A DNA stretch of 64,000 nucleotides from an uncultured bacterium (lineage in GTDB: Bacteria > Omnitrophota > Gorgyraeia > Ghiorseimicrobiales > Ghiorseimicrobiaceae): positions 2,349 through 66,348 of the forward strand of contig CAJVXN010000004.1 of assembly GCA_913009335.1 (NCBI GenBank). Direction: 5' to 3'. Each line of letters starts with the position of its first letter. Position 1 is the stretch's first letter. The notes under the pieces were generated by a model. That model worked only from the letters and a program-made list of their open reading frames with translations. It ran no database searches and had not been told where the DNA came from. The position numbers and the translations under genes are program-made. Shown piece after piece: positions 23,370-37,050 of the stretch.

Positions 23370-23407
23370 ATTAAATGAAGTTAATGTATAAATACAAACT
23401 CGGTAGG

Positions 23408-24277
23408 CTACTTGATACCTTTTACTTCAACGGATGTATGTCCATACTGCTGATACCTGTTAGTTTTAACCTTTACATCGCAAGGATTACAATGACCAAA
23501 ATTTGAACAGTCTCTAAATTTATTTTCGATTTGAAAATCCGGACTTAAAATATGCCCTATCGGATTTAATCTTTCATAAATATCGGCATGACAGCGAAAA
23601 ACACTCCCCTCACTATCTATCAAAAATTCCGTTGTCTTACATTGTACTTTCTTTCTGAATTTTTTATCACAGACGCCACTATACCTATAGGTTCCATATA
23701 ATTTCTTTTTATATTCGCCAAGAAACTCTTTCATGCGAAAATCTATTCCCTCTTTGCGTGCCTTACTTTGCGCCTCAGACATTATTTTTTCATATCCGGG
23801 TCGCATTACCCCCCATATACCAATACTGAAATTTGCCTTTAATAATTTTGAAGTTTTATGAATAGTTTCGTCTAAATCCATTTGCTCGGGATGGTAACTT
23901 ACGCGAATAGAAGCATAAGGAGCATCCCGCCTTAGTCTCTCAGGGTCAACCTTACTTTTAAATTCATCAATATCGAATCGTAAATTAGTTAATATTTCAA
24001 TATACAAATCTGGTTTTATATTATTTATTATGTATATGAAATCAGGATGTAAGCTAGGCTCTCCGCCTTGAAGAGTTATCGGTAAATCCTCTCGAGAAAT
24101 AATACGATTTAGACCACGGACCCAATCTTTTCCGGAGATATTCTTTCTTTTTATAATACCCTGCTCAAAGTGATTAATACAATAATGACATTTAAGATTA
24201 CAGGCAAAAGTTAAAAATACGCCAATATAATTATAATCCTCTGGAACTTGGACAGGTTTAGTAATATTGGTTTCCAT
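23408..24277 (-). CDS. Radical SAM enzyme with a Cys-rich (SPASM/twitch-like) C-terminal region
   Basis: CNLKCHYC plus LQGGEPSLHP. Seven C-terminal cysteines including CSNFGHCNPC. Confidence 0.75.
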   Translation of the reverse strand: METNITKPVQVPEDYNYIGVFLTFACNLKCHYCINHFEQGIIKRKNISGKDWVRGLNRIISREDLPITLQGGEPSLHPDFIYIINNIKPDLYIEILTNLRFDIDEFKSKVDPERLRRDAPYASIRVSYHPEQMDLDETIHKTSKLLKANFSIGIWGVMRPGYEKIMSEAQSKARKEGIDFRMKEFLGEYKKKLYGTYRYSGVCDKKFRKKVQCKTTEFLIDSEGSVFRCHADIYERLNPIGHILSPDFQIENKFRDCSNFGHCNPCDVKVKTNRYQQYGHTSVEVKGIK

Positions 24278-24299
24278 TTTTATTGAACCTCATTAGAAA

Positions 24300-24839
24300 T
24301 TAATTAAGCTCTGTTTTTTTATTTAAAAGCCGCCGCTTGAAAAATGCTAGAATCTTTGCCATCCATAATACTATAGATCCATAAATAAAATATTTATTGT
24401 CTTTCAAAATTACCTGATTGGTTTCAATAAGCCTCACAAATCTGCGATTAATTATTTCTTCTGCGCTATAGCGCTTTAAGATTTCATCTAAGGAAAGGCC
24501 CTCTCTGGCCTCGAATAGCTCGCGAACAATCCTTATTCTGCGGGCCGTCTCCCCTAAATTTATAAAGTGAAAATAGCAATACCCTAGCGCAGCATATGTC
24601 AAAAGATTTATCAAGATATCGGCAATAAAATCTTTAAGCAAACCGGAATATGCTGAAAAAATATAAAATTCTAAGGCAAATAAACTAATAACTCCCGCAA
24701 AAAAACCTAAGAATATAGAATTTAATAAGCCTATCTTCGGCAGGCATCGGGAAGTTCCAACCTGCAACAATATGTTTACTAGCAAGCTGACCATCAGAAA
24801 GATAATATTTAAATAATCAGGGTTCATTAGCAACCTCAA
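24300..24839 (-). CDS. Hypothetical membrane protein, paralog of 24836-25363
   Basis: Four predicted TM segments. The soluble C-terminal tail is similar to that of the upstream paralog. Confidence 0.4.
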   Translation of the reverse strand: MRLLMNPDYLNIIFLMVSLLVNILLQVGTSRCLPKIGLLNSIFLGFFAGVISLFALEFYIFSAYSGLLKDFIADILINLLTYAALGYCYFHFINLGETARRIRIVRELFEAREGLSLDEILKRYSAEEIINRRFVRLIETNQVILKDNKYFIYGSIVLWMAKILAFFKRRLLNKKTELN

Positions 24840-25363
24840 CCGCCCTTAGGAGCATTTAGCAATTTGCGATAAAATATAAATATATTTGCCAACAAAACTC
24901 CTTTAGGAGTTATTCGATATATCCCCTTATCGAGAAAAAGCATTTTATCGCGAAGTAGATCATCAATCCGCGGCCTTACTAGAAAATCATTCGTCATAAT
25001 CTTCTCTATTTTCTCTTTGGTCAAACCGGATGAGGCGGCTTTAGAAATATACAAAACTATCAGTAGTGACGGACTATCTACTTCTATGGCCGAATATGAA
25101 ACAATATAAGCTAGGACTAATGCGCCATAGGAGAAAGAAATAAGCAAATATTCAGAAAATCCCTGAGGCAAACTAAGACCTAGAAATGATACGGAAGAAT
25201 ATATTCTAGAGAAAAAAATACCGGCTATTAGAACACCAAAAAATATTTTTAGTAATCCTATAGTATGATTTTTTTTAGGCAAAGATACTCGCCAAATAAT
25301 AAAGTGAATTATAAACGCTAAAATAAATAGAAAAATGACATAAACTAGTTTATTCATAAACAA
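24836..25363 (-). CDS. Hypothetical membrane protein, a tandem paralog
   Basis: The C-terminus FLVRPRIDDLLRDKMLFLDKGIYRITPKGVLLANIFIFYRKLL aligns with VRLIETNQVILKDNKYFIYGSIVLWMAKILAFFKRRLL of the neighbor. The two genes overlap by 4 bp. Confidence 0.4.
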   Translation of the reverse strand: MFMNKLVYVIFLFILAFIIHFIIWRVSLPKKNHTIGLLKIFFGVLIAGIFFSRIYSSVSFLGLSLPQGFSEYLLISFSYGALVLAYIVSYSAIEVDSPSLLIVLYISKAASSGLTKEKIEKIMTNDFLVRPRIDDLLRDKMLFLDKGIYRITPKGVLLANIFIFYRKLLNAPKGG

Positions 25364-25394
25364 AAATACTATTGGCTATAGATTACTAAATATG

Positions 25395-26498
25395 TTAGAT
25401 AAAATTCTTATGTAAAACCTGTTTGTCTTTTGGCATCGTAAAGCTTGCGCCGCTAGACTTCAAATCCCATAAAAATTCATTTACTTTATGCTGGAGGCAT
25501 AGCGTGCCGCACATAATCTGTGCATTAAATTTATCAGAAGCAATAAAATTCAAAACATCCCAATAGCGCTCATCCTGCCATATTTCCTTAAAAGATTTTT
25601 CTGCGATATTACCTATATGATATTTTTTATATTTACTGTTAAATAACATTCCGCAAGGTGCGACCAACCCCGAACCGGAAAACTGCATAATAAAGGCAGG
25701 GGCATAACATTGTTTGTATTTACGCTTCCCTCCGCTTAAAATCTTAGACCACTTAACCGCAACTTTATATTCGTGCGTTGAATATTTCTCTGCCTCTTTT
25801 AAAATATCTATACATGACTGGTATTTTAAATAATCCACTCTCAGGCTTCCAACTTCATCATCACTGCAATGTTTAAAAATAAGATAATCTACTCCTAGAT
25901 CTTTACCGAGTTTTGCCAGGGGGATAACCTGATCACTAAAACGGGGGAGAAAAACCATCTGTAGCCCTATAGTAACCCCCAGCAACTTATCCTTTTTAAT
26001 GTTGACACACTGACGAATAATTTTCACTACCCTCTCAAAGCATTTATCATCGGTCCCGTGTATATCAGCATATCTTTTTGCACCTGCCGCCGAAATATTA
26101 AATCGTATATAGGTTAAAACGGATAATATCTCTTCAAGCCTATCTTCCTTTAATAAATACCCATTAGTTCCAACAGCCATATCTAGGCCATTGGCCTTGC
26201 CCCTCAAAACAGCATCGTAAAAATAAGGAGAACAGGTGCTTTCTCCGTCACTAACAAAACTTACTCCTTTAACGCCTATATCGGCTGCGTCATCTAAAAA
26301 CCTAAATATCACATCTTTAGTTATCTTCTTTTCATCGTTTGCCTGTAAGGCACCATAGCAATAAACGCATCTATAGGTACACCTACGGGTTAAAGCGCAA
26401 TCAATAGTAATAGGCGCTATTTTTTTTCCTTCTAGCCATGCCTTAAGGCGCTCCTCATGGTAAGCCAACTTTTGCCCATCGAGAACTAATTCTTTCAT
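25395..26498 (-). CDS. Radical SAM/SPASM-domain enzyme, paralog of 29350-30420
   Basis: CTYRCVYC cluster. C-terminal SPASM-like region with GNIAEKSFKEIW and CGTLC. The N-terminus aligns with the 29350 protein. Confidence 0.75.
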   Translation of the reverse strand: MKELVLDGQKLAYHEERLKAWLEGKKIAPITIDCALTRRCTYRCVYCYGALQANDEKKITKDVIFRFLDDAADIGVKGVSFVSDGESTCSPYFYDAVLRGKANGLDMAVGTNGYLLKEDRLEEILSVLTYIRFNISAAGAKRYADIHGTDDKCFERVVKIIRQCVNIKKDKLLGVTIGLQMVFLPRFSDQVIPLAKLGKDLGVDYLIFKHCSDDEVGSLRVDYLKYQSCIDILKEAEKYSTHEYKVAVKWSKILSGGKRKYKQCYAPAFIMQFSGSGLVAPCGMLFNSKYKKYHIGNIAEKSFKEIWQDERYWDVLNFIASDKFNAQIMCGTLCLQHKVNEFLWDLKSSGASFTMPKDKQVLHKNFI

Positions 26499-26523
26499 CT
26501 GAAATTATTTTTATTGAATAAAT

Positions 26524-27303
26524 CTATGCATTATTTCTTCTGGTTTGCGTTAGTGAATCACGGCTAAATCGTCTTTTACCGTTTTTATTTTTATGAAAAT
26601 AAAAATCTTTGACCAATCGTAAATACCCCCTTACAACCTGGTATAGAGAAGGAAAACTAACAGCTTTAGATACTCCCTCTTTTCTTAAACCCAGCTTATA
26701 GGGAACCTCGGCAAAAAGATAACCTTTTTTTACCGATCTTATCAAAATATCCGTCTGGAAAAAGAAACCATTACTTCTATAATCCAAATCATCTAAAATA
26801 GACTTACGATACAGAACCGTCCCGTTAGTATAGTTAAAATTAACCAGAAATGTCGTATTAATAATGAAACGGTATACAAACGAAAGCATGTTCCTAAAAA
26901 GAAGTCTTGTCTCTCTATTAAATATAAAAGGAATAACAATATCTACATGTTCCAATAAATTATAATAGCGGAAAATTTCCCGGGGATCATTTTCATTATC
27001 TCCGGGCAGCATAACAACAATATCTCCTGTTGCGCCCGCAACTCCATCCCAGAAAGAAGCGCCAATACCTAACGGTTTATCATGCCGGATAATAGAAACT
27101 TTTCCTGGGTTTTCGTTTATTTTTTGCTCAATCAAAATTCGAGTATTATCCGAACTACCATCATCTACTACAATAAGCTCCCCTGCTATATTAAAAGTAT
27201 TAAAATCTTTCAATACATCGTTGATTGCATTGGATATATTTGATTCTTCATTAAGCGCTGGCATAATAACGCTTAATTTATTTTCATCCATCTTCTTATT
27301 CAT
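26524..27303 (-). CDS. GT2 glycosyltransferase, Dpm1/ArnC-like polyprenyl-phosphate sugar synthase type
   Basis: LSVIMPALNEESNIS and VVDDGSSDNT GT-A/DxD architecture. No TM tail. Confidence 0.75.
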   Translation of the reverse strand: MNKKMDENKLSVIMPALNEESNISNAINDVLKDFNTFNIAGELIVVDDGSSDNTRILIEQKINENPGKVSIIRHDKPLGIGASFWDGVAGATGDIVVMLPGDNENDPREIFRYYNLLEHVDIVIPFIFNRETRLLFRNMLSFVYRFIINTTFLVNFNYTNGTVLYRKSILDDLDYRSNGFFFQTDILIRSVKKGYLFAEVPYKLGLRKEGVSKAVSFPSLYQVVRGYLRLVKDFYFHKNKNGKRRFSRDSLTQTRRNNA

Positions 27304-28337
27304 AAAATTCGCTTAACTGCCTTAATAATATCTTCTGAATCCAGATAAAATTCTTTTTCTAAAACAGGACTACTGGGAGTAGGCGTGTCAGCAAGACTAA
27401 TTACCTGGACATCTGATTTTAAATAAGGCCTTAATTTATTATGCATGCGCCCCAGAAGTATCTCGCCTATACCGCCACTAGCCCAACCTAAATCAGCAAA
27501 AACAAGCCTCCCTGTTTTCTTAACAGATTCAATAACAATTTCTTCGTCAAAAGGATTAAGTGATCTGGGATCAATAATTTCTATATCTATATCTTCCCGT
27601 TTTAATTTTTCCGCAGCCTTCATCGCTTCCTGTACCATTAATGATACGGCAACTATTGTTACATCTTTACCGGCCTTACGAATAAAACCTTTTCCAATAG
27701 GTATAAGATATTCTTTGGCAGGGACATAATCTTTAATATCATAAAGCCACCTATGCTCGATAAAAATAACGGGATTATTATCGGCTATACTTGCAAGTAA
27801 TAATCCTTTTGCATCATAAGCGCTTGACGGCATAACTACTTTAATTCCCGGCATATGCAAAAACAATGCATGTAGAGCCTGAGAATGCTGCGCTGAAGAA
27901 CCCCAGCCTCTACCGATAATGGAACGTATAACCATAGGGACAGCTACCCTACCGGAAGACATATAACATATTTTTGCTGCATGATTAAGTATCTGATCAA
28001 ATGAAAGAAGCATGAAATCCATTCGCATGTGTACTAAAATAGGCCTCATTCCACAAACTGCTGCTCCGACGCAAAAGCCGGTTAATCCGTTCTCTGATAT
28101 CGGTGTATCCATTACCCTACCGGGAAAATCCTTATGCAAATTAAGTGTTGATCCAAAAACACCTCCGGGATCATCAACACCTTCACCCATCAGGAAAACA
28201 CGGGGATCTCTCTTAAAAGCCTGAAAAGAGGCCTCTCTTAAGGCCTGTCTAAATTCAAGCGTCCTTTTATTCTTATCTAGAGAAGGAAAGGCTAAATTTT
28301 TAACGGCATTATCAACCGCTACTTTTGTCCAGGGCAT
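27300..28337 (-). CDS. Thiamine-diphosphate-dependent 2-oxoacid dehydrogenase E1 component, beta subunit (transketolase-like Pyr and C-terminal domains)
   Basis: 345 aa. E1-beta fold (FLMGEGVDDPGGVFGST...). Overlaps the alpha subunit gene. Confidence 0.8.
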   Translation of the reverse strand: MPWTKVAVDNAVKNLAFPSLDKNKRTLEFRQALREASFQAFKRDPRVFLMGEGVDDPGGVFGSTLNLHKDFPGRVMDTPISENGLTGFCVGAAVCGMRPILVHMRMDFMLLSFDQILNHAAKICYMSSGRVAVPMVIRSIIGRGWGSSAQHSQALHALFLHMPGIKVVMPSSAYDAKGLLLASIADNNPVIFIEHRWLYDIKDYVPAKEYLIPIGKGFIRKAGKDVTIVAVSLMVQEAMKAAEKLKREDIDIEIIDPRSLNPFDEEIVIESVKKTGRLVFADLGWASGGIGEILLGRMHNKLRPYLKSDVQVISLADTPTPSSPVLEKEFYLDSEDIIKAVKRIL

Positions 28338-29320
28338 GAGCTTTCTGTGTAATAAACGTTAGAATAAAGATCCTTACTATTAGGAAAATCGCTATTTTTT
28401 GCAAATCTTACAGCACTATCTATTTCTTCCTCAATCTTAGAACGAATTATATTTAATTTTTCTCTTGTTGCTATTTTATTTTTTAAAATATAATTCTCTA
28501 TTCTCTTGACAGGACATCGCTTCATCCAAGACTCAAGCTCAACGAGCGGACGGCATCCTTTATCAAAATCACAATCCGGTCCTACATGAGCTTTCCAGCG
28601 ATAGGTTCTACATTCAAGAATAAACGGCCCTGAGCCATGACGTATTTTTTTAATTAGTTTAGATGCTTTATCTATCATACTAATTGCATCGTTACCATCA
28701 CAACGTACACCCTTTATCCCGAATGCCTCTCCTCTCTTGTAAATGTTATCTAAAGGCTGCCTTGCCGAGAGCGGAGAATTTGTGGCATAAAAATTATTCT
28801 CGCAGACAAACAAAATAGGTAGTTTTTTTAGGGCGGCAAAGTTTAGGCTCTCATAAAAAACACCCTGCTCTACAGCACCGTCTCCGAAAAAAACAACCGC
28901 GATATTTTTGGTTTTTTTAAGTTTTAAACTTAAAGCAGCTCCTGTTGCCAACGGTATCCCCCCGCCGACAATAGCAGACGTAGCAAAGATCCCGCGCTCA
29001 GGACTTACCAGATGCATAGACCCACCCTTACCACTGCAACAACCTGTATCTTTACCATAAAGCTCCGCCATTATTGATTGAAGCTCTAATCCTTTAGCGA
29101 TACAATGCCCATGAGACCGATGATTACTAAAAACAATGTCTTCTTTTTTTAAATAATAGCAAACACTACTTGCTATTGCTTCCTGACCGATACACAGATG
29201 AACCGGCGTCTTAATCTCCTGCTCAGGATAGAGCATGACAATCCTCTCTTCAAAGAGGCGTATCTTCTGCATTATAAAATAGACATTTAGTAAATCGCTA
29301 TTTTTAATTTTTCCTGCCAC
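28319..29320 (-). CDS. Thiamine-diphosphate-dependent 2-oxoacid dehydrogenase E1 component, alpha subunit
   Basis: 333 aa. TPP-binding motif GDGAVEQGVFYESLNFAALKKLPILFVCENNFYA. Confidence 0.8.
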   Translation of the reverse strand: MAGKIKNSDLLNVYFIMQKIRLFEERIVMLYPEQEIKTPVHLCIGQEAIASSVCYYLKKEDIVFSNHRSHGHCIAKGLELQSIMAELYGKDTGCCSGKGGSMHLVSPERGIFATSAIVGGGIPLATGAALSLKLKKTKNIAVVFFGDGAVEQGVFYESLNFAALKKLPILFVCENNFYATNSPLSARQPLDNIYKRGEAFGIKGVRCDGNDAISMIDKASKLIKKIRHGSGPFILECRTYRWKAHVGPDCDFDKGCRPLVELESWMKRCPVKRIENYILKNKIATREKLNIIRSKIEEEIDSAVRFAKNSDFPNSKDLYSNVYYTESSCPGQK

Positions 29321-29349
29321 GAAAAACTCCTTAGAACTTAACGGCTATA

Positions 29350-30420: not shown

Positions 30421-31358
30421 CGCTTTTCCTTAACAGGTAATAAATCAACAACAGCATCTCTAATCTCACTAGGACTAATAAGCTCCATGCATTGCTTCTT
30501 CTGCTTGCAGGTAGAATTAAGGCAAGGAACACATTTATAATTAACTCTTGGAATAATCTTGACTCCCCGCTTATAAAGGAATACTTCCTTAGACGATGTC
30601 GGGCCGAAAAGAACAATAATTTTTTTCTTAAGAGCTACCGCCAAATGCATGCCCAAGCTATCATTAGTTATAATAAGGCGGCATGACTTAATCCAATCTA
30701 TATATTCATATAGATTATTTAAGCCTTTTTGCCAGGAAATAGCATACCCCTTCTTTAAACTCCGCTCTAAGTCTTTCCAGTACTTTTTGGGCCATGATTT
30801 ATTAGGCCATTTATCGCCAACAGCCCAATTAAACCCGATATCATATTTTACAGCAGATTTAGACTTATACCCAAGGATATACTCGTCTCTTTCTTTCCAT
30901 TTTTTATCGATCATCGAAGCTAATGCATCTTGCCAAAATTTAAAGTTCTCTTTTTTCTCCTGAAGATCCAAACATAAACTTAAAACTTTTTCTGCCCCAT
31001 CATAAGCCTGAGCAATACCTTTATCGGCATCAAATCGAAAACCAAATCTTCTCCAGGCATTAATAGAATCTGAAAATGCGCAAATTCCCGGCCCTTTTTC
31101 CAGGTTAATAACCGTATCAAAGCGCTCCCGCTGTAATTGCAAAACTGACTCCAGATTAAAAACTAAAATACGCTGAATAAACGGATTGTTTTCCAGGAGA
31201 GCATAAGCCTTTTCATCTACAAGCCAGCTAACTTTATCGGACTTAAAATAATTCAAAATTACCGTTGTCCGTAAAACATCTCCCAGGCTCGTTGTTGCGC
31301 CTATGTCTCCATCCAGTGTCTCTGAATAGCCTAACTTTATAATCAAAACCTTTGCCAT
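30417..31358 (-). CDS. Glycosyltransferase family 9 (heptosyltransferase-like)
   Basis: 313 aa. C-terminal GT-B motif SLGMHLAVALKKKIIVLFGPTS is typical of ADP-heptose:LPS heptosyltransferases. Confidence 0.75.
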   Translation of the reverse strand: MAKVLIIKLGYSETLDGDIGATTSLGDVLRTTVILNYFKSDKVSWLVDEKAYALLENNPFIQRILVFNLESVLQLQRERFDTVINLEKGPGICAFSDSINAWRRFGFRFDADKGIAQAYDGAEKVLSLCLDLQEKKENFKFWQDALASMIDKKWKERDEYILGYKSKSAVKYDIGFNWAVGDKWPNKSWPKKYWKDLERSLKKGYAISWQKGLNNLYEYIDWIKSCRLIITNDSLGMHLAVALKKKIIVLFGPTSSKEVFLYKRGVKIIPRVNYKCVPCLNSTCKQKKQCMELISPSEIRDAVVDLLPVKEKR

Positions 31359-31400
31359 GCCTCACCTCGATTCTAAAAATACTACCTCGCATAAACCCGA

Positions 31401-33353
31401 CTAATCAATTTTAATATTCCCTAAGATTACCCGACCAAGATTATCTATTGTTTTAGCATCCAAAACTGGCAATACTGCTCTATTCGCTAATGCAAACAAC
31501 CCTACTCTTATCCGATATTCTCCGCTCTTTAAACCAGAAGGAAGGGAAATATAATAATGTTCTCTGATAACTTGTTGTTCTGGCATATCTTTAGACGGAT
31601 AAACTCCATAAGCAAATGTATGTGTTTTCGTAAAACTCAGATTACCATTTGCATCTAAAAAATGTATAAAAAAACCTAATTCTCCGGGCCCTATTTTTAT
31701 AGATTCCCAATAATAAGCAAAATGCAAAATCCTATCACCATCCATATTCATCTCATCAACATCATACCCTAAAAAAGTAAGCTGGCCCGCTATATTAACA
31801 TGCATGGGATTATCAATATCTTCCTCGCTTGCCATTTCAACCAATTTATGTCCGGAAGGATAATTTTTTTTAAATAATATAATATCATCAACAGCCCCCA
31901 TAACCTTCCAGCCCCCATCCTCTAAAAAAGAACGAATATTATCCGGGGCTTGCGTCGGGAAGAAAGAATTACGCATCAGGGGCTCATTAAAATCTATTAA
32001 AGCATATTCTAAGCCTGAAGGGGGCTGATAAGCTACATTCGTATACATTCTAAATCCTGTTGAAACCAAATGCATTGACGATAAATCATGTCGATGAGCC
32101 AGTTGTGGTAAAAACTGAAAAGTTGAAATAACAGACGCCTCCCGGGGAATCATCTCAATCAACTTTTTCTTTTGCCGCGCTAAATCATTAATCTGATATC
32201 TCTTTATATAGTTGAGGAAATAAAACTGCGGCGCTTTTAAAGAAATACTAAAGCTTGCGCAGATTACAACAAATACAAAAAGCAGTAAAATGCGATATTT
32301 ATAAACTCTATTATAATTCAACAGCCTCTTAAATGCAAATACTACAGATACGAATATAAAAGGGATAATTAAGGCAGTGTAGTGATAATAAATTTTTGTA
32401 TGTGTCGCAACCGATGATAACAAATTTTGCAAAAAAACAGGGAAAGCAATCAATAAAACCGCGGGGCTTAAAAACCCGATAAAACCTGCGGGTGAAAATA
32501 AATCATATATATAAAATAGCTTTTCTGCAGTAAAGGCATACCTAATAGTTAATACAGGATGCATAATTATTGTTTTTGCCATATCAAAAATATTATCCCC
32601 AAGGTGCCGATAGTACGCAGTAAACATAAATCCTTCATTATACAATTTTGCATCCTTGGCAAAATAAGGTATGATAATTTTTACTGCCGTAAAAAACCAA
32701 ACAACGCCTAATATTAACGGTGTCAAAATCCACCTTTTTGATCTTTTTCGAATAAAGGCGTAGATACCAAACATAAAAACAACAAAACTGACATTTTCCT
32801 TACAACTCAAGGCCAATAAGATAAATATTAAAAATTTACTGAATTTCTCCTTCTCAAAATAATATAACGCAAAAAAAAGGAAGAATATCACATATATTTC
32901 AAAATGTGATTCAAAAAGATTCATAAAACCTACCGGTGGATATAATAGATAGACCAGACTTATCATCAAAGCGAAAACTCTATTTAATTTCGATTTAGCC
33001 AAGAGATACAAAGGATACGCCGCCAGGCCTAAGAATAAACTTTGTAAAAACAGAATTGCTAATGGATGCTGAAAAATCATATAGACGGGAATAAGCAGGA
33101 GAATGATCAAATAAATGTGAGCGCCGAAAATGCTTTGCTCGAGAAAAGGATAATAAAATATTTTACCATGAATGCTATTCCAAAGTACGGATATATCACT
33201 GGCAAAATCCCAATCATAATAACCAAAAGAATAATATTTCAAGAAAGAAAGATAGCTGAAAATAATAGCGTACAAACTTATAAATACCCAGATTATTTTA
33301 TCGGCAAACCTCTCACAAAACTTATCAACTATCTTCACGAATTTCTTCTCCAT
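31401..33353 (-). CDS. Large polytopic membrane protein, DUF2079-like (putative GT-C fold glycosyltransferase) with a C-terminal soluble domain
   Basis: 650 aa, about 12 TM helices and an early YYDWDF motif. The soluble C-terminal region is about 230 aa. Confidence 0.55.
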   Translation of the reverse strand: MEKKFVKIVDKFCERFADKIIWVFISLYAIIFSYLSFLKYYSFGYYDWDFASDISVLWNSIHGKIFYYPFLEQSIFGAHIYLIILLLIPVYMIFQHPLAILFLQSLFLGLAAYPLYLLAKSKLNRVFALMISLVYLLYPPVGFMNLFESHFEIYVIFFLFFALYYFEKEKFSKFLIFILLALSCKENVSFVVFMFGIYAFIRKRSKRWILTPLILGVVWFFTAVKIIIPYFAKDAKLYNEGFMFTAYYRHLGDNIFDMAKTIIMHPVLTIRYAFTAEKLFYIYDLFSPAGFIGFLSPAVLLIAFPVFLQNLLSSVATHTKIYYHYTALIIPFIFVSVVFAFKRLLNYNRVYKYRILLLFVFVVICASFSISLKAPQFYFLNYIKRYQINDLARQKKKLIEMIPREASVISTFQFLPQLAHRHDLSSMHLVSTGFRMYTNVAYQPPSGLEYALIDFNEPLMRNSFFPTQAPDNIRSFLEDGGWKVMGAVDDIILFKKNYPSGHKLVEMASEEDIDNPMHVNIAGQLTFLGYDVDEMNMDGDRILHFAYYWESIKIGPGELGFFIHFLDANGNLSFTKTHTFAYGVYPSKDMPEQQVIREHYYISLPSGLKSGEYRIRVGLFALANRAVLPVLDAKTIDNLGRVILGNIKID

Positions 33354-35587
33354 CTAAATACCCAATAGCTAAATATTGTAGCCGAACCTAAAAGACCCGC
33401 CAAAAGACAAAACAGGCCAAATTTATAAAATCTTGGATCATATACAAAACGCACTATATGGCTGCCCTTATCAATAATGACGGATTTAAAAGCAATATTA
33501 GTCTTATATACCTTCCCCTCGTTTCCGTCAATAAATACCCGCCAGCCCTTATCAAAACCATCACTATAATAAAGAAAGCTATCTTCATCCGCATAAACAT
33601 CTATAACTATTTCATTAGGATTAAACGTTGTTACCTCAATCTTGCCGCCTGGGGCACCTCTACTATCTAAACTACCAAAATCTCTTTTTAAGTGAGCGTA
33701 TTTAAACGGTATGGCTTCTTCAATAAATACGACGTCCTTTAAGGTATTTGCATCCATCCCCTGTAACTCTTCAATTATTTTATTAGGAGAGGTAACTATA
33801 GCACTACGGACAAGACGGAGTTTAGGAACAGATATACCCATAATAATATCTTTGACCTCACCTGAGACCCGTGAGCTGTTTATAAATGTATAAAAATCTT
33901 TCATTTCATAAAAATGCGTTGACCTCCGGGGAATCCTAATGCTATAGGCATTAAATATCTTACGCATTGCCGGGCCAAAGGCATAGGGATACGGTTTCGG
34001 AAAAAACTCTGGTAAACGGTAATCTTCATAAGCTATCTTACTGTTCGAAGGGAAAGCCGTATAATCGCGAGGCATAGTTGTAAATTTATAAATGGTATGA
34101 TTAACCATAAGCAAATCAATAAGGATAAAAAATATTATTACAAAATATTTAATATTTATATTAATCCGCGGCCTTGTTAATAGCGGGAAGATAATAACAG
34201 TCCCAACAACGAATATAAGAATATTGAGCGCTGAACGAAAATAGATAGTGAAAAATGTATGGATCGACCCCTTAATAAAAAACATAGAATTGCTGGCAGA
34301 AAGAGAGCATATTTTAAGCAAAGGCAAAAAGATGTTAAAAAGATGGTTATTTATCAATAAAGACAAAAGACAGATGAAACTGACAGAAAAAATAATCGGC
34401 ATTTTATAAAATCCGATTTTAGACGTATGCAGCCAATCCATTACTACATCCGCACCAATACAGGTAAAAAAAACTAAGCAAAAAATATAAAACACGCCAA
34501 AGGTATGCATATTCCTGATTATGGAAAAGAAGGGGAAAAACTTAGTGAATAATTGATATACAGGATATCCATCTCCCAACATCAATAATTCAATAATGAT
34601 AGCTGTAAATAGAAAACCTAATTTATATTTGTGCCGGGAAAAACATAATCCAATAATAGCGAATAACAAAGGGATTAAACCGATATATAAGAAAGATTCG
34701 GACATAGAATACCAGTTAGAAAAATGCAACATAAAAGAATAAGGAACTAATAAACTGAAGAAATCAGTAGGAAGTGAATATGCCCCCGAAGGAATTTCAA
34801 AAATTCGTACTACTGGAATAACATTATGCGTATATGTTAAATAGACAGGCAGTAATCTTATCGTCAAAAGAATAAATATAAAAAATCCTCCAAGGCAAAC
34901 CTTATAATTCTTAAGAAACATAGTAAATTTTGGCGCGGGCAGTGCGCGGGATAAAAAGATGCACATTAAAAGAACGCTAACAGAAGAAATAATGAACATT
35001 GCATGATAGGAAGGAAGCGCTACTCCTAAGAGAAAAACCGTACTCAAAAAAAATTTTGGTTTTTGCTGTTCTAAGAATTTCAGGATAGACAATAAAATCA
35101 GCGGCATAAGATAAAATGCTAAAATGAAGGCATGCTGCTTTAAATATGAAACAGCCAAAGATGAAAAAGATAGACTTATAAAAGCGATAAAAGCGCTAAT
35201 TTTATATTTTGCCACATGCCTAAAAAATAAATAGCCACCGCATATAAAAATTATATACCGCAACAATAAATCATAGTGATAAAGAACAAGGGTATCAATT
35301 TTTACGAATTTTCCTATAAAGATTAAAAAAAGTGTTGTTATATCTAAAAGATGCAATATGTTAATATTTAAAAAAAATATCTCTCCGCAGTTCATAAAAG
35401 GATTCCAAAGAGGCAAGAAACCCTGATGTAAGCAATCTACAAAATATGAAAATATCCCATACCAAATAATACTATCATGACTAACCATTAACTTGTTAGT
35501 CACCCATAACTGCCGTTGTGCAATAATCAATACAACAATAACAGCGACAACTCCAAAGACTTCCTTAAGTTTTTTATTAATTATCAT
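33335..35587 (-). CDS. YfhO-family polytopic membrane protein (GT-C-like glycosyltransferase)
   Basis: 750 aa, more than 12 TM helices. The C-terminal beta-rich domain ending GWRVFIDGNEGKVYKTNIAFKSVIIDKGSHIVRFVYDP matches the YfhO C-terminal signature. Confidence 0.65.
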   Translation of the reverse strand: MIINKKLKEVFGVVAVIVVLIIAQRQLWVTNKLMVSHDSIIWYGIFSYFVDCLHQGFLPLWNPFMNCGEIFFLNINILHLLDITTLFLIFIGKFVKIDTLVLYHYDLLLRYIIFICGGYLFFRHVAKYKISAFIAFISLSFSSLAVSYLKQHAFILAFYLMPLILLSILKFLEQQKPKFFLSTVFLLGVALPSYHAMFIISSVSVLLMCIFLSRALPAPKFTMFLKNYKVCLGGFFIFILLTIRLLPVYLTYTHNVIPVVRIFEIPSGAYSLPTDFFSLLVPYSFMLHFSNWYSMSESFLYIGLIPLLFAIIGLCFSRHKYKLGFLFTAIIIELLMLGDGYPVYQLFTKFFPFFSIIRNMHTFGVFYIFCLVFFTCIGADVVMDWLHTSKIGFYKMPIIFSVSFICLLSLLINNHLFNIFLPLLKICSLSASNSMFFIKGSIHTFFTIYFRSALNILIFVVGTVIIFPLLTRPRININIKYFVIIFFILIDLLMVNHTIYKFTTMPRDYTAFPSNSKIAYEDYRLPEFFPKPYPYAFGPAMRKIFNAYSIRIPRRSTHFYEMKDFYTFINSSRVSGEVKDIIMGISVPKLRLVRSAIVTSPNKIIEELQGMDANTLKDVVFIEEAIPFKYAHLKRDFGSLDSRGAPGGKIEVTTFNPNEIVIDVYADEDSFLYYSDGFDKGWRVFIDGNEGKVYKTNIAFKSVIIDKGSHIVRFVYDPRFYKFGLFCLLAGLLGSATIFSYWVFRWRRNS

Positions 35588-35589
35588 GG

Positions 35590-37050
35590 CTAAATGAATA
35601 CTCTAACTAAGGATGCTAGTAACCTAAATGCCAGTCGAGCAAGGCTGAACCATTCACCGGGTCTTAAATACCACCGGGGAGGAAGATAAAACCATCCGGC
35701 CGGACCTATTCTTTTAATCAAAAGTCTGAAAACTCTATTTGGCCTTAAAGAAAAAAATAAGTTAGCCTTAATTACATCATTTCTGAGCGTTTTTTCATCG
35801 CATGTTACAGGCACATAAGGTAATTTTGCTTCTGTGGAGGAATCCTGAACCAAGCTCGCGCAGGCATTTAAATTAGTCCATCCTTTTTCTATGAAAAGTC
35901 TGCCTTCTTCTTTTGCGATTTCGTACAATCTGGTGCCCGGATAAGGGGTAGCATTATTAAACCTGACATAATCCAAATCTAACTCTTTGGCTAATCTATA
36001 AGCGCTCCATCTTTCCTGCCTGGTCTCAGTAGGCAAGCCAAAGATAAAAGTACCCGATACGCCAAATCCGTGTTTTTTTGCCAGTTTTACCGCATCAATA
36101 TTTTGCTGGACAGTCTCTTTTTTATTCAATATAACCATTAATCGTTCCGATGCTGTCTCGAGTCCAAAATTGATTAATCTAAACCCGGCTTTTTTCAATA
36201 AAACAAGCACTTCATCATTAACAGCATCCGCTCTAGTCTGACAATCAAAAGTTGCCTTTTCATAAAATCTTTTTTTGATCATGCTTTCACATAACTCTTT
36301 AATCCTAGATTTATTAACCGTAAAATTATCATCAACAAAATTAATATGTGTCTGCTGGTATTTATCCAACAAAATGGTAATTCCATCGATTACGGTTTGT
36401 GTAGGTATATAGCGAAATTCCTGACCTGAAATACTCCTTTGACTGCAAAATATGCAATCATAAGGGCATCCGCGGGAACTGGACATAAAACCAAAATTAT
36501 ATTTATCTATATGCCGCTCAAATAAATGGTAAGGAAAAGGCGGAATTTTGCTTAAATCCGGAAGGCGCGCCGGAGGATTATGAACCACTTTTCCATTTTG
36601 CTTAAACGATATTCCGTTTATATTTGAATAATCACCTTTATTCTTAATCGCTTCGTAGAGTTCGGCAATAATCTCTTCACCTTCGCTCCTTACTAAAAAG
36701 TCGACGTCATTGCTTCCTAAAACTTCATTCGGTAAAACTGTAGGATGAATACCACCCAGAATAACCTTGGCCTCAGGATACATTTTTTTAACTAGCCCGG
36801 ATATCTCAAGACTCCTGCTAGCGCAGGCTGTAAGAGTAGAAATACCGACAACATAAGGTGCGGAAGATAATTTGAAAACCTCGCTTAATACTTTTTCTGA
36901 AATAGGCGTTATATGCTCATCGATAATTTCAACCTTCTCATTCTGACCCAATAGATAACCAGCTAAATAACCCATGCCAATCGGTACACTCAGGGGTACG
37001 TATTTCTCAAAAATACCAAATTTAGTTGATCTTGGATTTATTAAAATCAT
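35590..37050 (-). CDS. B12-binding-domain radical SAM enzyme (class B)
   Basis: 486 aa. N-terminal cobalamin-binding Rossmann region followed by SSSRGCPYDCIFCSQ (CxxxCxxC). Confidence 0.8.
   Translation of the reverse strand: MILINPRSTKFGIFEKYVPLSVPIGMGYLAGYLLGQNEKVEIIDEHITPISEKVLSEVFKLSSAPYVVGISTLTACASRSLEISGLVKKMYPEAKVILGGIHPTVLPNEVLGSNDVDFLVRSEGEEIIAELYEAIKNKGDYSNINGISFKQNGKVVHNPPARLPDLSKIPPFPYHLFERHIDKYNFGFMSSSRGCPYDCIFCSQRSISGQEFRYIPTQTVIDGITILLDKYQQTHINFVDDNFTVNKSRIKELCESMIKKRFYEKATFDCQTRADAVNDEVLVLLKKAGFRLINFGLETASERLMVILNKKETVQQNIDAVKLAKKHGFGVSGTFIFGLPTETRQERWSAYRLAKELDLDYVRFNNATPYPGTRLYEIAKEEGRLFIEKGWTNLNACASLVQDSSTEAKLPYVPVTCDEKTLRNDVIKANLFFSLRPNRVFRLLIKRIGPAGWFYLPPRWYLRPGEWFSLARLAFRLLASLVRVFI

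What the first reader, a model, noticed from the sequence alone, without database searches (positions are those of the whole stretch)
23408..37050. A ~13.6 kb co-directional block packs four radical SAM enzymes, an orphan TPP-dependent E1 alpha/beta pair, GT2 and GT9 transferases and two GT-C-like membrane proteins. It looks like an unusual radical-chemistry envelope glycoconjugate pathway.
Twelve tightly spaced minus-strand genes form the block. Three junctions overlap (4 bp, 19 bp, 4 bp) and the others are closely spaced, so it is operon-like.

Gene order along the minus strand:
- B12-binding radical SAM (35590-37050)
- YfhO-like GT-C membrane protein
- DUF2079-like polytopic membrane protein
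- GT9 heptosyltransferase-like
- rSAM-SPASM (29350-30420)
- E1 alpha
- E1 beta
- Dpm1-like GT2
- rSAM-SPASM paralog (25395-26498)
- two paralogous small membrane proteins
- rSAM with Cys-rich tail (23408-24277)

A Dpm1-like polyprenyl-phosphate sugar synthase together with GT-C polytopic transferases (YfhO, DUF2079) is the established logic for moving a lipid-linked sugar to a periplasmic or surface acceptor. ArnC/ArnT, GtrB/GtrC and YfhO in lipoteichoic acid glycosylation work this way.

E1 alpha/beta pairs without E2 or E3 are known to install two-carbon branches on sugars; AviB1/AviB2 in avilamycin are an example.

Four radical SAM enzymes on top of this is exceptional. In sugar chemistry such enzymes do epimerisation, C-methylation, dehydration or dehydrogenation. 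I infer that the locus builds a heavily tailored, possibly branched or C-methylated, sugar on a lipid carrier and attaches it to a surface polymer or protein, possibly the adjacent pilins. I do not recognise this combination as any described pathway.
Basis: partly seen in the sequence, partly recalled or inferred. Interest (0 to 1): 0.85.

Follow-up and report, generated by a model that had tools for sequence, protein, structure and literature searches.

The report
Radical-SAM sugar-tailoring and membrane glycosylation gene cluster
An uncultured Omnitrophota bacterium carries a conserved 12-gene operon that most likely builds an unusual, radically tailored heptose-type sugar and attaches it to the cell envelope through lipid-carrier enzymes; its enzyme core recurs across many anaerobic bacteria and archaea and has not been described.

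Summary
Twelve tightly packed minus-strand genes (23408-37050) encode four radical SAM enzymes, an orphan E1 alpha/beta pair, GT9, a Dpm1/ArnC-like GT2, a YfhO-type and a DUF2079 membrane protein, and two small membrane proteins. The source is Candidatus Omnitrophota. The same gene order recurs in at least seven other species-level genomes, mostly with different flanks.

The block is modular. One radical SAM gene ("SPASM1") plus a thiamine enzyme (the E1 pair or a split transketolase) recurs across Omnitrophota, Desulfobacterota, Planctomycetota, Bacillota and archaea. This pair is preceded either by GT9 or by GmhA-like and HldE-like genes, never both, which points to a heptose-type nucleotide sugar.

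The two small membrane proteins belong to a tiny unannotated family (three helices plus a winged helix). They travel with the GT2, "SPASM2", B12-radical SAM and GT-C genes. A structure model confirms the GT-C fold of the YfhO-like protein.

Best reading: cytoplasmic radical and thiamine tailoring of a heptose-type sugar, followed by lipid-carrier export and GT-C transfer. The product and acceptor are unknown. A link to pilins is not supported.

This is a new variant of known glycosylation logic. Interest is moderate to high.

The parts
35590..37050 (-). B12-binding radical SAM enzyme (class B type) with a hydrophobic C-terminal tail (residues 468-486)
   Evidence: Pfam finds PF02310 plus PF04055. 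No NCBIfam cut-off is reached; the best hit is BchE at 196 bits against a cut-off of 481. The best PDB relatives are 9ccb (QCMT, glutamine C-methyltransferase), AprD4 and OxsB. CX3CX2C is invariant at C195/C199/C202.
33335..35587 (-). YfhO-type GT-C glycosyltransferase, about 13 TM helices plus a C-terminal beta-rich domain; a branch seen so far almost only in Omnitrophota
31401..33353 (-). DUF2079 polytopic membrane protein, a presumed GT-C-type transferase
   Evidence: Pfam PF09852 scores 216 bits. At least 9 hydrophobic segments are predicted. D47, D49 and D53 are invariant in the stretch after the first hydrophobic segment. No PDB sequence relative was found, and there is no profile similarity to the YfhO-like family. 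The fold was not modelled.
30417..31358 (-). Divergent GT9 (heptosyltransferase-like) GT-B glycosyltransferase with a conserved C-terminal four-Cys site
   Evidence: Pfam PF01075 matches residues 215-288. The score is below all heptosyltransferase equivalog cut-offs. Both GT9 signature stretches (GD...; ND-S-x-G-x-H) align to 3tov and to WaaF 1psw. D233, S234, G236, H238, C93, C279, C284 and C290 are invariant. The subfamily is small, with 170 representatives at E<=1e-30. Fusions exist to an SDR epimerase, to an OYE-like reductase and to Nudix.
29350..30420 (-). 'SPASM1': radical SAM enzyme with one probable auxiliary cluster; the anchor gene of the cross-phylum cassette
   Evidence: Pfam finds PF04055 plus PF13186. 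The best NCBIfam score is 99 bits against a cut-off of 380. The best PDB relatives are BlsE, MoaA and DesII. Cysteines C42/C46/C49 plus C268/C286/C330/C334 are invariant across 82 sequences. There are 429 relatives in species genomes, 47-68% identical across phyla.
28319..29320 (-). TPP-dependent E1 alpha-like subunit, orphan (no E2/E3)
   Evidence: Pfam E1_dh scores 227 bits. TIGR03182 scores 332 against a cut-off of 394. Human PDH E1 alpha matches at E 1.6e-51. The GDG...N TPP motif is invariant, and cluster-associated orthologues are 47-71% identical.
27300..28337 (-). TPP-dependent E1 beta-like subunit
   Evidence: Pfam finds Transket_pyr plus Transketolase_C. NF006667 scores 311 against a cut-off of 321. 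The gene overlaps the E1 alpha gene by 19 bp.
26524..27303 (-). Soluble Dpm1/ArnC-like GT2, a candidate polyprenyl-phosphate sugar synthase with no TM helix
   Evidence: Pfam PF00535. NCBIfam weak hits include ArnC, PgfS, AglJ, PpgS and dolichyl-phosphate hexose transferase. The best PDB relatives are ArnC (9hwj) and DPMS (5mlz, aligned over residues 7-232). No hydrophobic segment is predicted.
25395..26498 (-). 'SPASM2': paralogue of SPASM1 (29% identity); almost always directly follows the GT2
   Evidence: Pfam. BLASTP against SPASM1 gives E 2e-48. Orthologues are 60-78% identical across phyla. The CX3CX2C motif plus five further cysteines are invariant. The GT2-SPASM2 pair occurs near TMa in 24 of 43 loci.
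24836..25363 (-). 'TMa': 3-TM helix protein with a C-terminal winged-helix domain; new small family
24300..24839 (-). 'TMb': distant paralogue of TMa, always its downstream neighbour
   Evidence: 25% identity to TMa over 168 residues, E 0.045. It is adjacent to TMa in 42 of 43 metagenome loci.
23408..24277 (-). 'rSAM4': short radical SAM enzyme with a Cys-rich, abbreviated SPASM-like tail; co-occurs with GT9
   Evidence: Pfam PF04055 scores 34.6 bits. No NCBIfam cut-off is reached. C26/C30/C33 plus C213, C229, C257, C263 and C266 are invariant. It is present in 20 loci, almost always loci that also have GT9.

Best explanation
The block is one operon that joins two recurrent modules into an anaerobic envelope-glycosylation pathway.

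Module A is cytoplasmic: GT9, SPASM1, E1 alpha/beta and rSAM4, acting together with the GT2 and SPASM2. It tailors a heptose-type activated sugar. SPASM1 has a single auxiliary cluster, like the radical SAM dehydrogenases BtrN and anSME and the sugar enzymes BlsE and DesII. I propose that it creates a carbonyl on the sugar. [quoted passage not shown] The product would be a branched or chain-extended higher-carbon sugar. The other radical SAM enzymes and the B12 enzyme tailor it further, for example by epimerisation or C-methylation.

Module B works at the membrane. The soluble Dpm1/ArnC-like GT2 loads a sugar onto polyprenyl phosphate. The TMa/TMb pair tethers or organises the soluble enzymes (the GT2, and perhaps the tail-anchored B12 radical SAM) at the membrane, or takes part in translocation. 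The YfhO-type and DUF2079 transferases then move the sugar to an envelope acceptor on the outer face.

Shown here: gene content, conservation, modularity, the GT-C fold of the YfhO-like protein, the winged-helix fold of TMa, the absence of E2/E3, and intact cofactor motifs.

Inferred: heptose as the substrate, the carbonyl-plus-two-carbon chemistry, the order of the steps, the lipid carrier, and the acceptor.
For: Unit and conservation:
- The same order is kept in at least 7 species-level Omnitrophota genomes, with two or more different flank sets.
- In L006 the YfhO gene has moved to the 3' end but stays inside the cluster.

Glycan context:
- In other phyla the core lies among epimerases, DegT aminotransferases, NeuB, methyltransferases and other GT2 genes.

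Heptose link:
- SPASM1 is preceded either by GT9 (29 loci) or by a GmhA-like isomerase and a domain-swapped HldE-like kinase/nucleotidyltransferase (34 loci). The two never occur together (Fisher p = 6e-10, not corrected for phylogeny).
- All six Bacillota or archaeal loci are of the GmhA/HldE type.
- GT9 keeps both heptosyltransferase signature stretches. It occurs fused to an SDR nucleotide-sugar enzyme and to Nudix.

Radical SAM and thiamine coupling:
- A thiamine enzyme follows SPASM1 in at least 57 of 68 loci with enough sequence downstream.
- The E1 pair (29 loci) and the split transketolase (34 loci) replace each other. This fits a shared two-carbon carboligation onto a carbonyl.
- E1 pairs without E2/E3 install two-carbon sugar branches in avilamycin and paulomycin (PMC4425429).
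- SPASM1's closest solved relatives include the sugar enzymes BlsE and DesII.

Membrane module:
- The GT2's nearest relatives are ArnC and DPMS.
- The YfhO-like model is a GT-C fold.
- TMa/TMb are found only in such loci. Within 6 kb of TMa in 43 loci there is a GT2 in 24, SPASM2 in 24, a B12 radical SAM in 19, and a known GT-C or large polytopic protein in 30.
- The B12 enzyme has a hydrophobic C-terminal tail.
- Deltaproteobacterial versions of the cassette are followed by a PMT_2-like protein and a polytopic TPR protein.
- A GT2 paired with YfhO is the established three-component glycosylation logic (PMC5836110, PMC8035078).
Against: - No biochemical data exist for any of these families.
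- No GmhA, HldE or SDR gene lies in the 64 kb window, so the sugar supply for this organism is unseen.
- GT9 and the GmhA/HldE-like proteins all score far below the curated heptose-pathway cut-offs, so the sugar may not be a heptose.
- The GT2 lacks the TM helices of GtrB, ArnC and DPMS, and its acidic motif is GDNEND rather than a classical DAD.
- TMa/TMb do not look like any known flippase. Their winged helix could instead be a DNA-binding regulator.
- The GT-C enzymes sit next to the SPASM1 cassette only in Omnitrophota among the 80 genome loci, so the two modules could serve different products.
- The roles of GT9 and the GT2 in one pathway are not reconciled.
- The GT-C fold of DUF2079 is untested.
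Confidence: 0.55

Rival explanations
1. The chemistry runs in a different order. The thiamine enzyme, with SPASM1, builds an unusual ketose phosphate de novo from an aldose phosphate plus a two-carbon unit. A GmhA-like isomerase and an HldE-like kinase/nucleotidyltransferase then isomerise and activate it. This would resemble the lincosamide GDP-octose route, rather than tailoring an existing NDP-heptose.
For: The gene order HldE-like, GmhA-like, SPASM1, transketolase occurs in more than 30 loci. The GmhA-like and HldE-like proteins are divergent and below the heptose cut-offs, and HldE-like has swapped domain order. HAD phosphatase-like and APH kinase-like genes accompany the cassette in the Desulfovibrio loci. 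Transketolases normally act on sugar phosphates.
Against: The window's own cluster and 28 other GT9-type loci have no GmhA-like or HldE-like gene within 10 kb. An E1-type enzyme using pyruvate would give a 1-deoxy-ketose, which a GmhA-type isomerase cannot convert. Yet E1 and GmhA/HldE co-occur in L013, L014, L021, L059 and L068.
Confidence: 0.2
2. There are two unrelated pathways that merely lie side by side. One is a cytoplasmic sugar-nucleotide tailoring cassette (GT9 to rSAM4). The other is a separate membrane glycosylation unit (B12 radical SAM, YfhO, DUF2079), with a different sugar and a different acceptor.
For: The modules occur apart in other lineages. SPASM1 cassettes occur without GT-C genes in about 70 loci. 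TMa/TMb, B12 radical SAM and GT-C genes occur without SPASM1 or E1.
Against: The gene order is kept in at least 7 species-level genomes, with 2-42 bp gaps or overlaps. TMa/TMb, which belong to the membrane-module signature, are embedded in the middle of module A, between SPASM2 and rSAM4. YfhO relocates within the cluster in L006. GT2-SPASM2 links to both modules. Deltaproteobacterial cassettes are followed by other GT-C-like genes.
Confidence: 0.13
3. The cluster modifies a membrane lipid or the polyprenyl carrier itself, with glycosylation as a side feature. Examples would be methylation or cross-linking, as in hopanoid, ladderane or tetraether chemistry.
For: The weak best NCBIfam hits of the B12 radical SAM include HpnJ, HpnR and the ladderane-associated lipid B12 radical SAM. 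The protein is tail-anchored. The cassette is present in anammox bacteria.
Against: There are no lipid-synthesis genes in the block or its relatives. The neighbours are nucleotide-sugar genes. All scores are far below the family cut-offs.
Confidence: 0.06
4. The radical SAM/SPASM enzymes are peptide (RiPP) maturases, and the transferases glycosylate the peptide.
For: SPASM-domain enzymes are best known from RiPP pathways. Many weak NCBIfam hits are to peptide maturases.
Against: No intergenic gap in the block exceeds 42 bp, so there is no room for a precursor gene. The only small ORF nearby (83 aa) is conserved only in the one genome that shares the flanks. The N-terminal extension before the radical SAM core is about 30 residues, too short for a peptide-recognition domain. 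Only 4-5 auxiliary cysteines are conserved. The context is nucleotide-sugar genes in more than 30 loci.
Confidence: 0.04
5. These are ordinary housekeeping enzymes, namely a pyruvate or acetoin dehydrogenase E1 and MoaA/PqqE/anSME-type radical SAM proteins, that happen to be neighbours.
For: E1 alpha and E1 beta score close to the PDH E1 models: 332 against a cut-off of 394, and 311 against 321.
Against: There is no E2 or E3 in the 64 kb. The E1 pair is interchangeable with a split transketolase at the same position. All radical SAM scores are 3-10 fold below the curated cut-offs.
Confidence: 0.02

Closest known systems
Three-component transmembrane glycosylation systems: CsbB/GtlA + GtcA + YfhO/GtlB for lipoteichoic acid; GtrB/GtrA/GtrC; ArnC/ArnEF/ArnT
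   Same: A Dpm1/GtrB/ArnC-type GT2 catalytic domain is encoded together with polytopic GT-C transferases, one of them in the YfhO family. The implied logic is the same: a polyprenyl-phosphate sugar made inside and transferred outside (PMC5836110, PMC8035078).
   Different: The GT2 is soluble, with no TM helices. There is no GtrA- or SMR-type flippase. Instead there is a pair of 3-TM winged-helix proteins. Two different GT-C proteins are present. Four radical SAM enzymes and a thiamine enzyme are embedded in the operon. The host is a diderm Omnitrophota bacterium, not a Firmicute.
E1-like pairs that install two-carbon sugar branches: AviB1/AviB2 (avilamycin eurekanate) and Pau11/Pau12 (paulomycose); functionally also YerE (yersiniose)
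   Same: A PDH-type E1 alpha/beta pair without E2/E3 sits inside a glycan gene cluster (PMC4425429).
   Different: Sequence relatedness to AviB1/AviB2 was not tested. The partner here is a radical SAM enzyme, not the non-haem iron AviO2 or a 4,6-dehydratase-derived 4-keto sugar. The E1 pair is interchangeable with a split transketolase. The hosts are anaerobes, not Streptomyces.
ADP-heptose pathway and GT9 LPS heptosyltransferases (GmhA, HldE, WaaC/WaaF)
   Same: There is a GT9-family protein with both signature stretches. In sister loci, GmhA-like and HldE-like genes sit directly upstream of the same radical SAM gene.
   Different: All scores are far below the equivalog cut-offs. HldE-like has swapped domain order. 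GT9 carries a conserved four-Cys site and belongs to a small divergent subfamily. No lipid A or core genes are nearby.
Radical SAM enzymes of sugar tailoring: BtrN (twitch dehydrogenase), DesII, BlsE, AprD4, and B12-dependent C-methyltransferases such as GenK
   Same: Each has a radical SAM core plus a single auxiliary-cluster domain. BlsE and DesII are among the best solved relatives of SPASM1, and AprD4 is among those of the B12 enzyme.
   Different: Similarity is confined to the radical SAM core (E 1e-8 or weaker for SPASM1). No known pathway pairs such an enzyme with a thiamine enzyme, or uses three to four of them for one glycan. The functional comparison with BtrN and GenK rests on my own knowledge, not on a test here.
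Lincosamide GDP-octose pathway (LmbR transaldolase, LmbN GmhA-like isomerase, LmbP/K/O); cited from memory
   Same: A carbon-carbon bond-forming enzyme makes a higher-carbon ketose phosphate, which heptose-pathway paralogues then isomerise and nucleotide-activate. This resembles the HldE/GmhA-type sister loci.
   Different: A thiamine enzyme and a radical SAM enzyme take the place of a transaldolase. It does not apply directly to the window, which lacks GmhA/HldE-like genes.

Membership tests
Three-component GT2 / flippase / GT-C glycosylation system | Cytoplasmic GT2 of the GtrB/CsbB/ArnC/DPMS polyprenyl-phosphate glycosyltransferase type | tested here: inconclusive
   The catalytic domain is closest to ArnC and DPMS and to the ArnC, PgfS, AglJ and PpgS models. 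All scores are below the cut-offs, there is no TM helix, and the acidic motif is atypical (GDNEND).
Three-component GT2 / flippase / GT-C glycosylation system | Small GtrA/GtcA-type (4-TM) or SMR-type flippase | tested here: not met
Three-component GT2 / flippase / GT-C glycosylation system | Polytopic GT-C fold transferase with an acidic residue in the first outer loop | tested here: met
YfhO family (PF09586) | Full-length match to the family model | tested here: inconclusive
   Only model positions 755-834 match, though the score of 36.5 bits is above the gathering cut-off of 28.5. The orthologues form a separate branch, those with a source name all Omnitrophota.
LPS heptosyltransferase (GT9: WaaC/WaaF/WaaQ) | Reaches an equivalog model cut-off | tested here: not met
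   The best score is TIGR02195 at 50.3 bits against a cut-off of 134.6.
LPS heptosyltransferase (GT9: WaaC/WaaF/WaaQ) | N-terminal G-D and C-terminal D-(S/T)-G-x-x-H signature stretches | tested here: met
   Both stretches align to 3tov and 1psw. D233, S234, G236 and H238 are invariant in 28 orthologues.
LPS heptosyltransferase (GT9: WaaC/WaaF/WaaQ) | Uses ADP-heptose as donor and lipid A-Kdo as acceptor | not testable with these tools
   The only evidence is indirect: mutual exclusivity with GmhA/HldE-like genes.
2-oxoacid dehydrogenase complex E1 | Thiamine diphosphate binding motif and an alpha/beta pair | tested here: met
   Pfam E1_dh, Transket_pyr and Transketolase_C are present. G146-D147-G...N176 and beta Glu82 are invariant.
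2-oxoacid dehydrogenase complex E1 | Encoded with E2 (lipoyl acyltransferase) and E3; reaches the PDH E1 cut-offs | tested here: not met
   There is no E2 or E3 among the ORFs of at least 100 aa in the window that were scanned against Pfam. Scores are 332 against a cut-off of 394 and 311 against 321.
AviB1/AviB2-type sugar-branching E1 pair | Orphan E1 pair inside a glycan biosynthesis cluster | tested here: met
AviB1/AviB2-type sugar-branching E1 pair | Sequence orthology to AviB1/AviB2, and transfer of a two-carbon unit to a keto-sugar | not tested
Radical SAM / SPASM | CX3CX2C radical SAM cluster motif | tested here: met
   The motif is invariant in SPASM1, SPASM2, rSAM4 and the B12 enzyme.
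Radical SAM / SPASM | Seven-cysteine SPASM motif binding two auxiliary clusters | tested here: not met
   Only 4 (SPASM1), 5 (SPASM2) and 5-6 (rSAM4) invariant C-terminal cysteines are present. This is more like a twitch or partial SPASM domain.
Class B (cobalamin-dependent) radical SAM methyltransferase | N-terminal B12-binding Rossmann domain plus a radical SAM core | tested here: met
   PF02310 plus PF04055. The best solved relative is QCMT, 9ccb.
Class B (cobalamin-dependent) radical SAM methyltransferase | Catalyses methyl transfer | not testable with these tools
   Relatives also include non-methylating enzymes: AprD4, OxsB and BchE.

The most novel reading that the evidence does not exclude
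A widespread, undescribed anaerobic route to branched or chain-extended higher-carbon sugars. A single-auxiliary-cluster radical SAM enzyme oxidises a heptose-type activated sugar to a carbonyl. A dedicated thiamine enzyme, either an E1 pair or a split transketolase, then adds two carbons. In Omnitrophota this route is wired to a new membrane module: a soluble GT2, a new paired 3-TM winged-helix protein family, a tail-anchored B12 radical SAM and two GT-C transferases. The module modifies the sugar on its lipid carrier and installs it on the envelope.
Probability: 0.25. Interest if true: 0.8.

Novelty: new variant of a known kind. Interest (0 to 1): 0.62.

Why it matters
If the model is right, a radical SAM enzyme coupled to a thiamine enzyme would be a new way of making carbon-carbon bonds on sugars without oxygen. 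The pairing is present in hundreds of uncultured anaerobes from at least eight bacterial phyla and three archaeal lineages, so a whole class of envelope sugars would be unknown to current glycobiology.

It would also give a first functional handle on three things:
- DUF2079.
- A divergent YfhO branch, so far seen almost only in Omnitrophota.
- A new membrane-tethered winged-helix protein pair.

Omnitrophota are ultrasmall and often host-associated, so their surface chemistry probably matters for attachment.

The proposal can be tested directly. The core enzymes are small and soluble, and their candidate substrates (ADP-heptose, pyruvate, SAM) are available.

Tried and rejected
- An exact-sequence look-up of the GTG-start SPASM1 ORF failed, because the databases call the gene one codon shorter.
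- Promoter and terminator consensus scans over 20000-38600 found fewer sites than in shuffled sequence, so they are uninformative.
- Rfam at gathering thresholds found no riboswitch or other RNA near the block, only tRNA-Ala at 3190-3265.
- A profile-profile comparison of the YfhO-like and DUF2079 families gave no similarity.
- DUF2079 has no sequence relative in the PDB. Its GT-C status therefore rests on Pfam membership and a conserved acidic motif only.
- The afdb50 fold library was unavailable.
- Literature searches found nothing for DUF2079, for radical SAM with transketolase, GmhA and HldE, for radical SAM with ADP-heptose, or for Omnitrophota with radical SAM and glycosyltransferase.
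- The idea that TMa/TMb are an ArnE/ArnF-like flippase pair was dropped after the structure model.
- The idea that pilins are the acceptor was dropped. The type IV pilus-like genes are 8-19 kb away, and the other full clusters, apart from L008, have different flanks.
- tblastn for GmhA, HldE, SDR epimerase, NeuB and other recurrent neighbours found none in the window.

Full report
**1. The observation**

Pfam confirms the following:
- A B12-binding radical SAM enzyme.
- A YfhO-family protein. The hit is above the gathering score but covers only the C-terminal 80 residues.
- A strong DUF2079 match (216 bits).
- A GT9 protein.
- Two Radical_SAM + SPASM proteins.
- An E1 alpha and an E1 beta subunit.
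- A GT2.
- A fourth, short radical SAM protein.
- Two small hydrophobic proteins with no Pfam hit.

With longest-ORF starts, the junctions are 2, -19, 42, -4, 29, -19, -4, 25, 31, -4 and 22 bp. That is five overlaps rather than three, and the largest gap is 42 bp. uvrA follows 38 bp downstream. An 83-codon ORF lies 165 bp upstream.

The surroundings are housekeeping genes:
- On one side: a type IV pilus / type II secretion-like apparatus (4293-15292), ExbBD, a TPR protein and UvrA.
- On the other side: aspartate dehydrogenase, HPPK-PanC, and lysine and arginine biosynthesis genes.

No E2 or E3 component is present in the window. None of the radical SAM proteins comes near a curated NCBIfam cut-off (best 99 against 380, 83 against 380, 196 against 481 and 34 against 260).

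**2. Origin and conservation**

The closest database proteins are from Candidatus Omnitrophota. In GCA_028714115.1 (L002) the twelve genes occur in the same order, with one extra B12 radical SAM gene.

I ran a genome-collection scan with an alignment of the first SPASM protein ("SPASM1"). It found 429 relatives, and I examined the best 80 loci. BLASTP and clustering of their ORFs show the full arrangement in the Omnitrophota loci L002, L004, L005, L006, L008, L010 and L028. Metagenome contigs L084, L102, L143 and L148 also show it. Only L008 shares the window's flanks. In L006 the YfhO gene sits at the other end of the cluster. The block is therefore a conserved unit, not a chance run of genes.

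**3. The block is modular, and the core is cross-phylum**

SPASM1 homologues 47-68% identical occur in many lineages:
- Bacteria: Omnitrophota, Deltaproteobacteria/Thermodesulfobacteriota, Planctomycetota (including anammox bacteria), Bacillota, Elusimicrobia, Fibrobacter, Auribacterota and Firestonebacteria.
- Archaea: Methanoperedens, Hydrothermarchaeota and Nanoarchaeia.

In at least 57 of 68 loci with enough downstream sequence, the next genes encode a thiamine enzyme. This is either the E1 alpha/beta pair (29 loci) or a split transketolase (34 loci).

Upstream of SPASM1 lies one of two alternatives:
- The GT9 gene (29 loci), usually with rSAM4 elsewhere in the same locus.
- A GmhA-like SIS isomerase plus an HldE-like protein with swapped domain order (34 loci), often with an SDR epimerase.

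The two alternatives never share a locus (Fisher p = 6e-10, not corrected for phylogeny). All six Bacillota or archaeal loci are of the GmhA/HldE type, whereas GT9-type loci come only from diderm phyla.

The surrounding genes in these other organisms are typical glycan genes: DegT aminotransferases, NeuB, SDR epimerases, methyltransferases and other GT2s.

The cluster-associated proteins are unusually conserved across phyla:
- SPASM2: median 68% identity.
- rSAM4: median 62% identity.
- GT9: median 60% identity.
- GT2: median 60% identity.
- E1 alpha and E1 beta: median 54-55% identity.

**4. Individual proteins**

*SPASM1, SPASM2 and rSAM4.* SPASM1 and SPASM2 are paralogues (29% identity, E 2e-48). 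Beyond the CX3CX2C motif they keep only four and five invariant cysteines, and rSAM4 keeps five to six. This fits one auxiliary cluster rather than a full SPASM domain. SPASM1's best solved relatives are BlsE, MoaA and DesII, but the similarity is weak and confined to the core.

*B12 radical SAM.* It is closest to the glutamine C-methyltransferase QCMT (9ccb), AprD4 and OxsB. It ends in a hydrophobic tail.

*E1 pair.* It keeps the thiamine diphosphate motif and the activating glutamate. It resembles PDH E1 but falls below both curated cut-offs.

*GT9.* It keeps both heptosyltransferase signature stretches and has an invariant C-terminal four-cysteine site. It belongs to a small divergent subfamily, with 170 representatives at E<=1e-30 among 1.84 billion proteins. 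Members of this subfamily occur fused to an SDR nucleotide-sugar enzyme, to an OYE-like reductase, or to a Nudix domain.

*GT2.* Its closest solved relatives are ArnC and Pyrococcus dolichol-phosphate-mannose synthase. Its weak NCBIfam hits are enriched in polyprenyl-phosphate glycosyltransferases. It has no transmembrane helix.

*DUF2079.* It has invariant D47, D49 and D53 after its first hydrophobic segment. Its fold was not tested. It has no PDB sequence relative and no profile similarity to the YfhO-like family.

**5. The small membrane proteins**

A metagenome scan found 203 relatives. In 43 loci of at least 5 kb, the following lie within 6 kb of TMa:

| Neighbour | Loci (of 43) |
|---|---|
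| TMb, adjacent to TMa | 42 |
| The GT2 | 24 |
| SPASM2 | 24 |
| A B12 radical SAM | 19 |
| A recognised GT-C (YfhO, DUF2079, GT87 or PMT_2) | 15 |
| A GT-C or another large polytopic protein | 30 |

Some of these loci lack SPASM1 and the thiamine enzyme altogether. So TMa/TMb, the B12 radical SAM, GT-C enzymes and GT2-SPASM2 form a second, membrane-centred module.

In deltaproteobacterial loci, the SPASM1-E1-GT2'-B12'-small membrane protein-GT9-rSAM4 operon is followed by a PMT_2-like protein and a polytopic TPR protein. That is weak, independent support for a link between the cassette and GT-C enzymes.

**6. Most likely mechanism**

I read the block as a fusion of two modules.

*Module A (cytoplasmic).* The either/or pattern of GT9 versus GmhA/HldE-like genes, together with its split between diderm and monoderm/archaeal hosts, is most simply explained if the substrate is a heptose-type activated sugar. 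Organisms that make LPS heptose would supply it from their own pool and use a heptosyltransferase-like enzyme. The others would carry dedicated supply genes.

The fixed SPASM1-thiamine enzyme pair, and the interchange of an E1 pair with a transketolase, suggest a shared reaction: addition of a two-carbon unit to a carbonyl. Single-auxiliary-cluster radical SAM dehydrogenases such as BtrN and anSME make ketones or aldehydes without oxygen (this is my own knowledge, not tested here). E1 pairs without E2/E3 are the established way to add two-carbon branches to sugars in avilamycin and paulomycin (PMC4425429). SPASM2, rSAM4 and the B12 enzyme would tailor the sugar further.

*Module B (membrane).* The soluble GT2 would load a sugar onto polyprenyl phosphate. 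TMa/TMb would anchor or organise the soluble enzymes at the membrane, or take part in translocation. The two GT-C enzymes would transfer the sugar to an envelope acceptor. This follows the CsbB/YfhO logic (PMC5836110, PMC8035078).

Shown: gene content, conservation, modularity, cofactor motifs and two folds.

Inferred: the sugar, the chemistry, the order of steps, the carrier and the acceptor.

Overall confidence in this reading is about 0.55. Confidence in the specific carbonyl-plus-two-carbon chemistry is about 0.25-0.3.

**7. Rivals**

1. The thiamine enzyme and SPASM1 build a new ketose phosphate, which GmhA/HldE-like enzymes then activate, as in the lincosamide octose route. This fits the HldE-type loci. 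It does not fit the window, which has no such genes, nor the loci where E1 and GmhA co-occur.
2. Two unrelated pathways lie side by side. This is possible because the modules occur apart elsewhere. It is weakened by the conserved order, by TMa/TMb being embedded in the middle of module A, and by the relocation of YfhO within the cluster.
3. Lipid modification. This rests only on weak B12 radical SAM similarities.
4. RiPP maturation. There is no precursor ORF and no recognition domain, and the context is nucleotide-sugar genes.
5. Ordinary PDH and housekeeping radical SAM enzymes. This is contradicted by the missing E2/E3, the transketolase interchange and the sub-threshold scores.

**8. Comparison with what is known, and novelty**

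The logic combines four known things:
- GT2 plus GT-C transmembrane glycosylation.
- Orphan E1 pairs for sugar branching.
- Heptose pathway and GT9 enzymes.
- Radical SAM sugar tailoring.

Three defining features of those systems were tested and not met: a GtrA-type flippase, equivalog-level membership of GT9 in the heptosyltransferases, and a full SPASM motif.

I found no paper describing this cassette, DUF2079, or the TMa/TMb family.

I rate it a new variant of a known kind. It is an uncharacterised but widespread radical SAM and thiamine sugar-tailoring module, here wired to GT-C transfer. Interest is 0.62. It is still substantial, because the cassette is widespread, enzymatically unusual and directly testable.

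Noticed in passing
window 1370-2902 (-), 3190-3265 (-), 3374-4318 (-): A fused Memo + AMMECR1 gene and a nearby radical SAM gene are separated by tRNA-Ala(CGC). They resemble the three-part 'AmmeMemoRadiSam' system of unknown function. This is a fifth radical SAM gene in the window, unrelated to the cluster.
   Followed up: partly
window 4293-15292 (-): A type IV pilus / type II secretion-like gene set. It comprises five N_methyl pilin-like ORFs, PilC/T2SSF, PilB/T2SSE with an MshEN domain, a secretin, a T2SSB-like protein, PilO, PilM and PilX. It is followed by ExbD/ExbB and an 845-aa TPR protein.
   Followed up: partly
window 37216-37467 (-): An 83-codon, very basic ORF made of two about 35-residue repeats (KVGIxxExGYLYFVDKxGxxSxAKMxRG) with a poly-Lys tail and no Pfam hit. 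It is conserved at 66% identity at the same position in L008 but is absent from the other cluster-bearing loci.
   Followed up: partly
window 55500-57456 (-): A second, independent small GT2 (55500-56207) overlaps a GT87-family GT-C protein (56197-57456) by 11 bp. This looks like another candidate lipid-carrier glycosylation pair in the same window. A 332-aa ORF with no significant Pfam hit follows.
   Followed up: no
window 59414-60855 (+): Two plus-strand ORFs carry transposase domains (DUF772 and DDE_Tnp_1_6), apparently a split IS element. They sit where the otherwise uniform minus-strand coding and the negative GC skew break down.
   Followed up: no
window 1-58000: Essentially every gene over 58 kb is on the minus strand, with GC skew steadily about -0.2. 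This is an unusually long co-directional stretch.
   Followed up: no
window 38514-39794 (-): One ORF fuses HPPK (folate pathway) to pantoate-beta-alanine ligase (PanC).
   Followed up: no
proteins P0306, P0415, P0432: Members of the divergent GT9 subfamily occur as fusions: SDR epimerase/dehydratase + GT9, Old-Yellow-Enzyme-like reductase + GT9, and GT9 + Nudix hydrolase. These fusions tie the subfamily to nucleotide-sugar chemistry.
   Followed up: partly
L038 9989-21058, also L015 and L039: Deltaproteobacteria carry a compact eight-gene version of the cassette: SPASM1, E1a, E1b, GT2', B12-rSAM', a small YdjM-like membrane protein, GT9 and rSAM4. It is followed on the opposite strand by a PMT_2-like polytopic protein and a polytopic TPR protein.
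   Followed up: partly
L085 6596-17892; unnamed JGI contig of P0174: The TMa/TMb pair also occurs without SPASM1 or E1. In L085 it sits next to GT87, a GT2-methyltransferase fusion, a PMT_2-NHL protein, B12 radical SAM enzymes and an ABC-2 exporter. In the P0174 contig it sits next to a B12 radical SAM, asparagine synthase, a formyltransferase, a polysaccharide deacetylase and YfhO.
   Followed up: partly
L017, L030, L041, L043, L054, L055, L061, L073, L082: A 'GSU2086 family' protein (NF052581, 370 bits against a cut-off of 250) and a stand-alone cytidylyltransferase-like protein recur next to the HldE-like and GmhA-like genes upstream of SPASM1. Their role is unknown.
   Followed up: no
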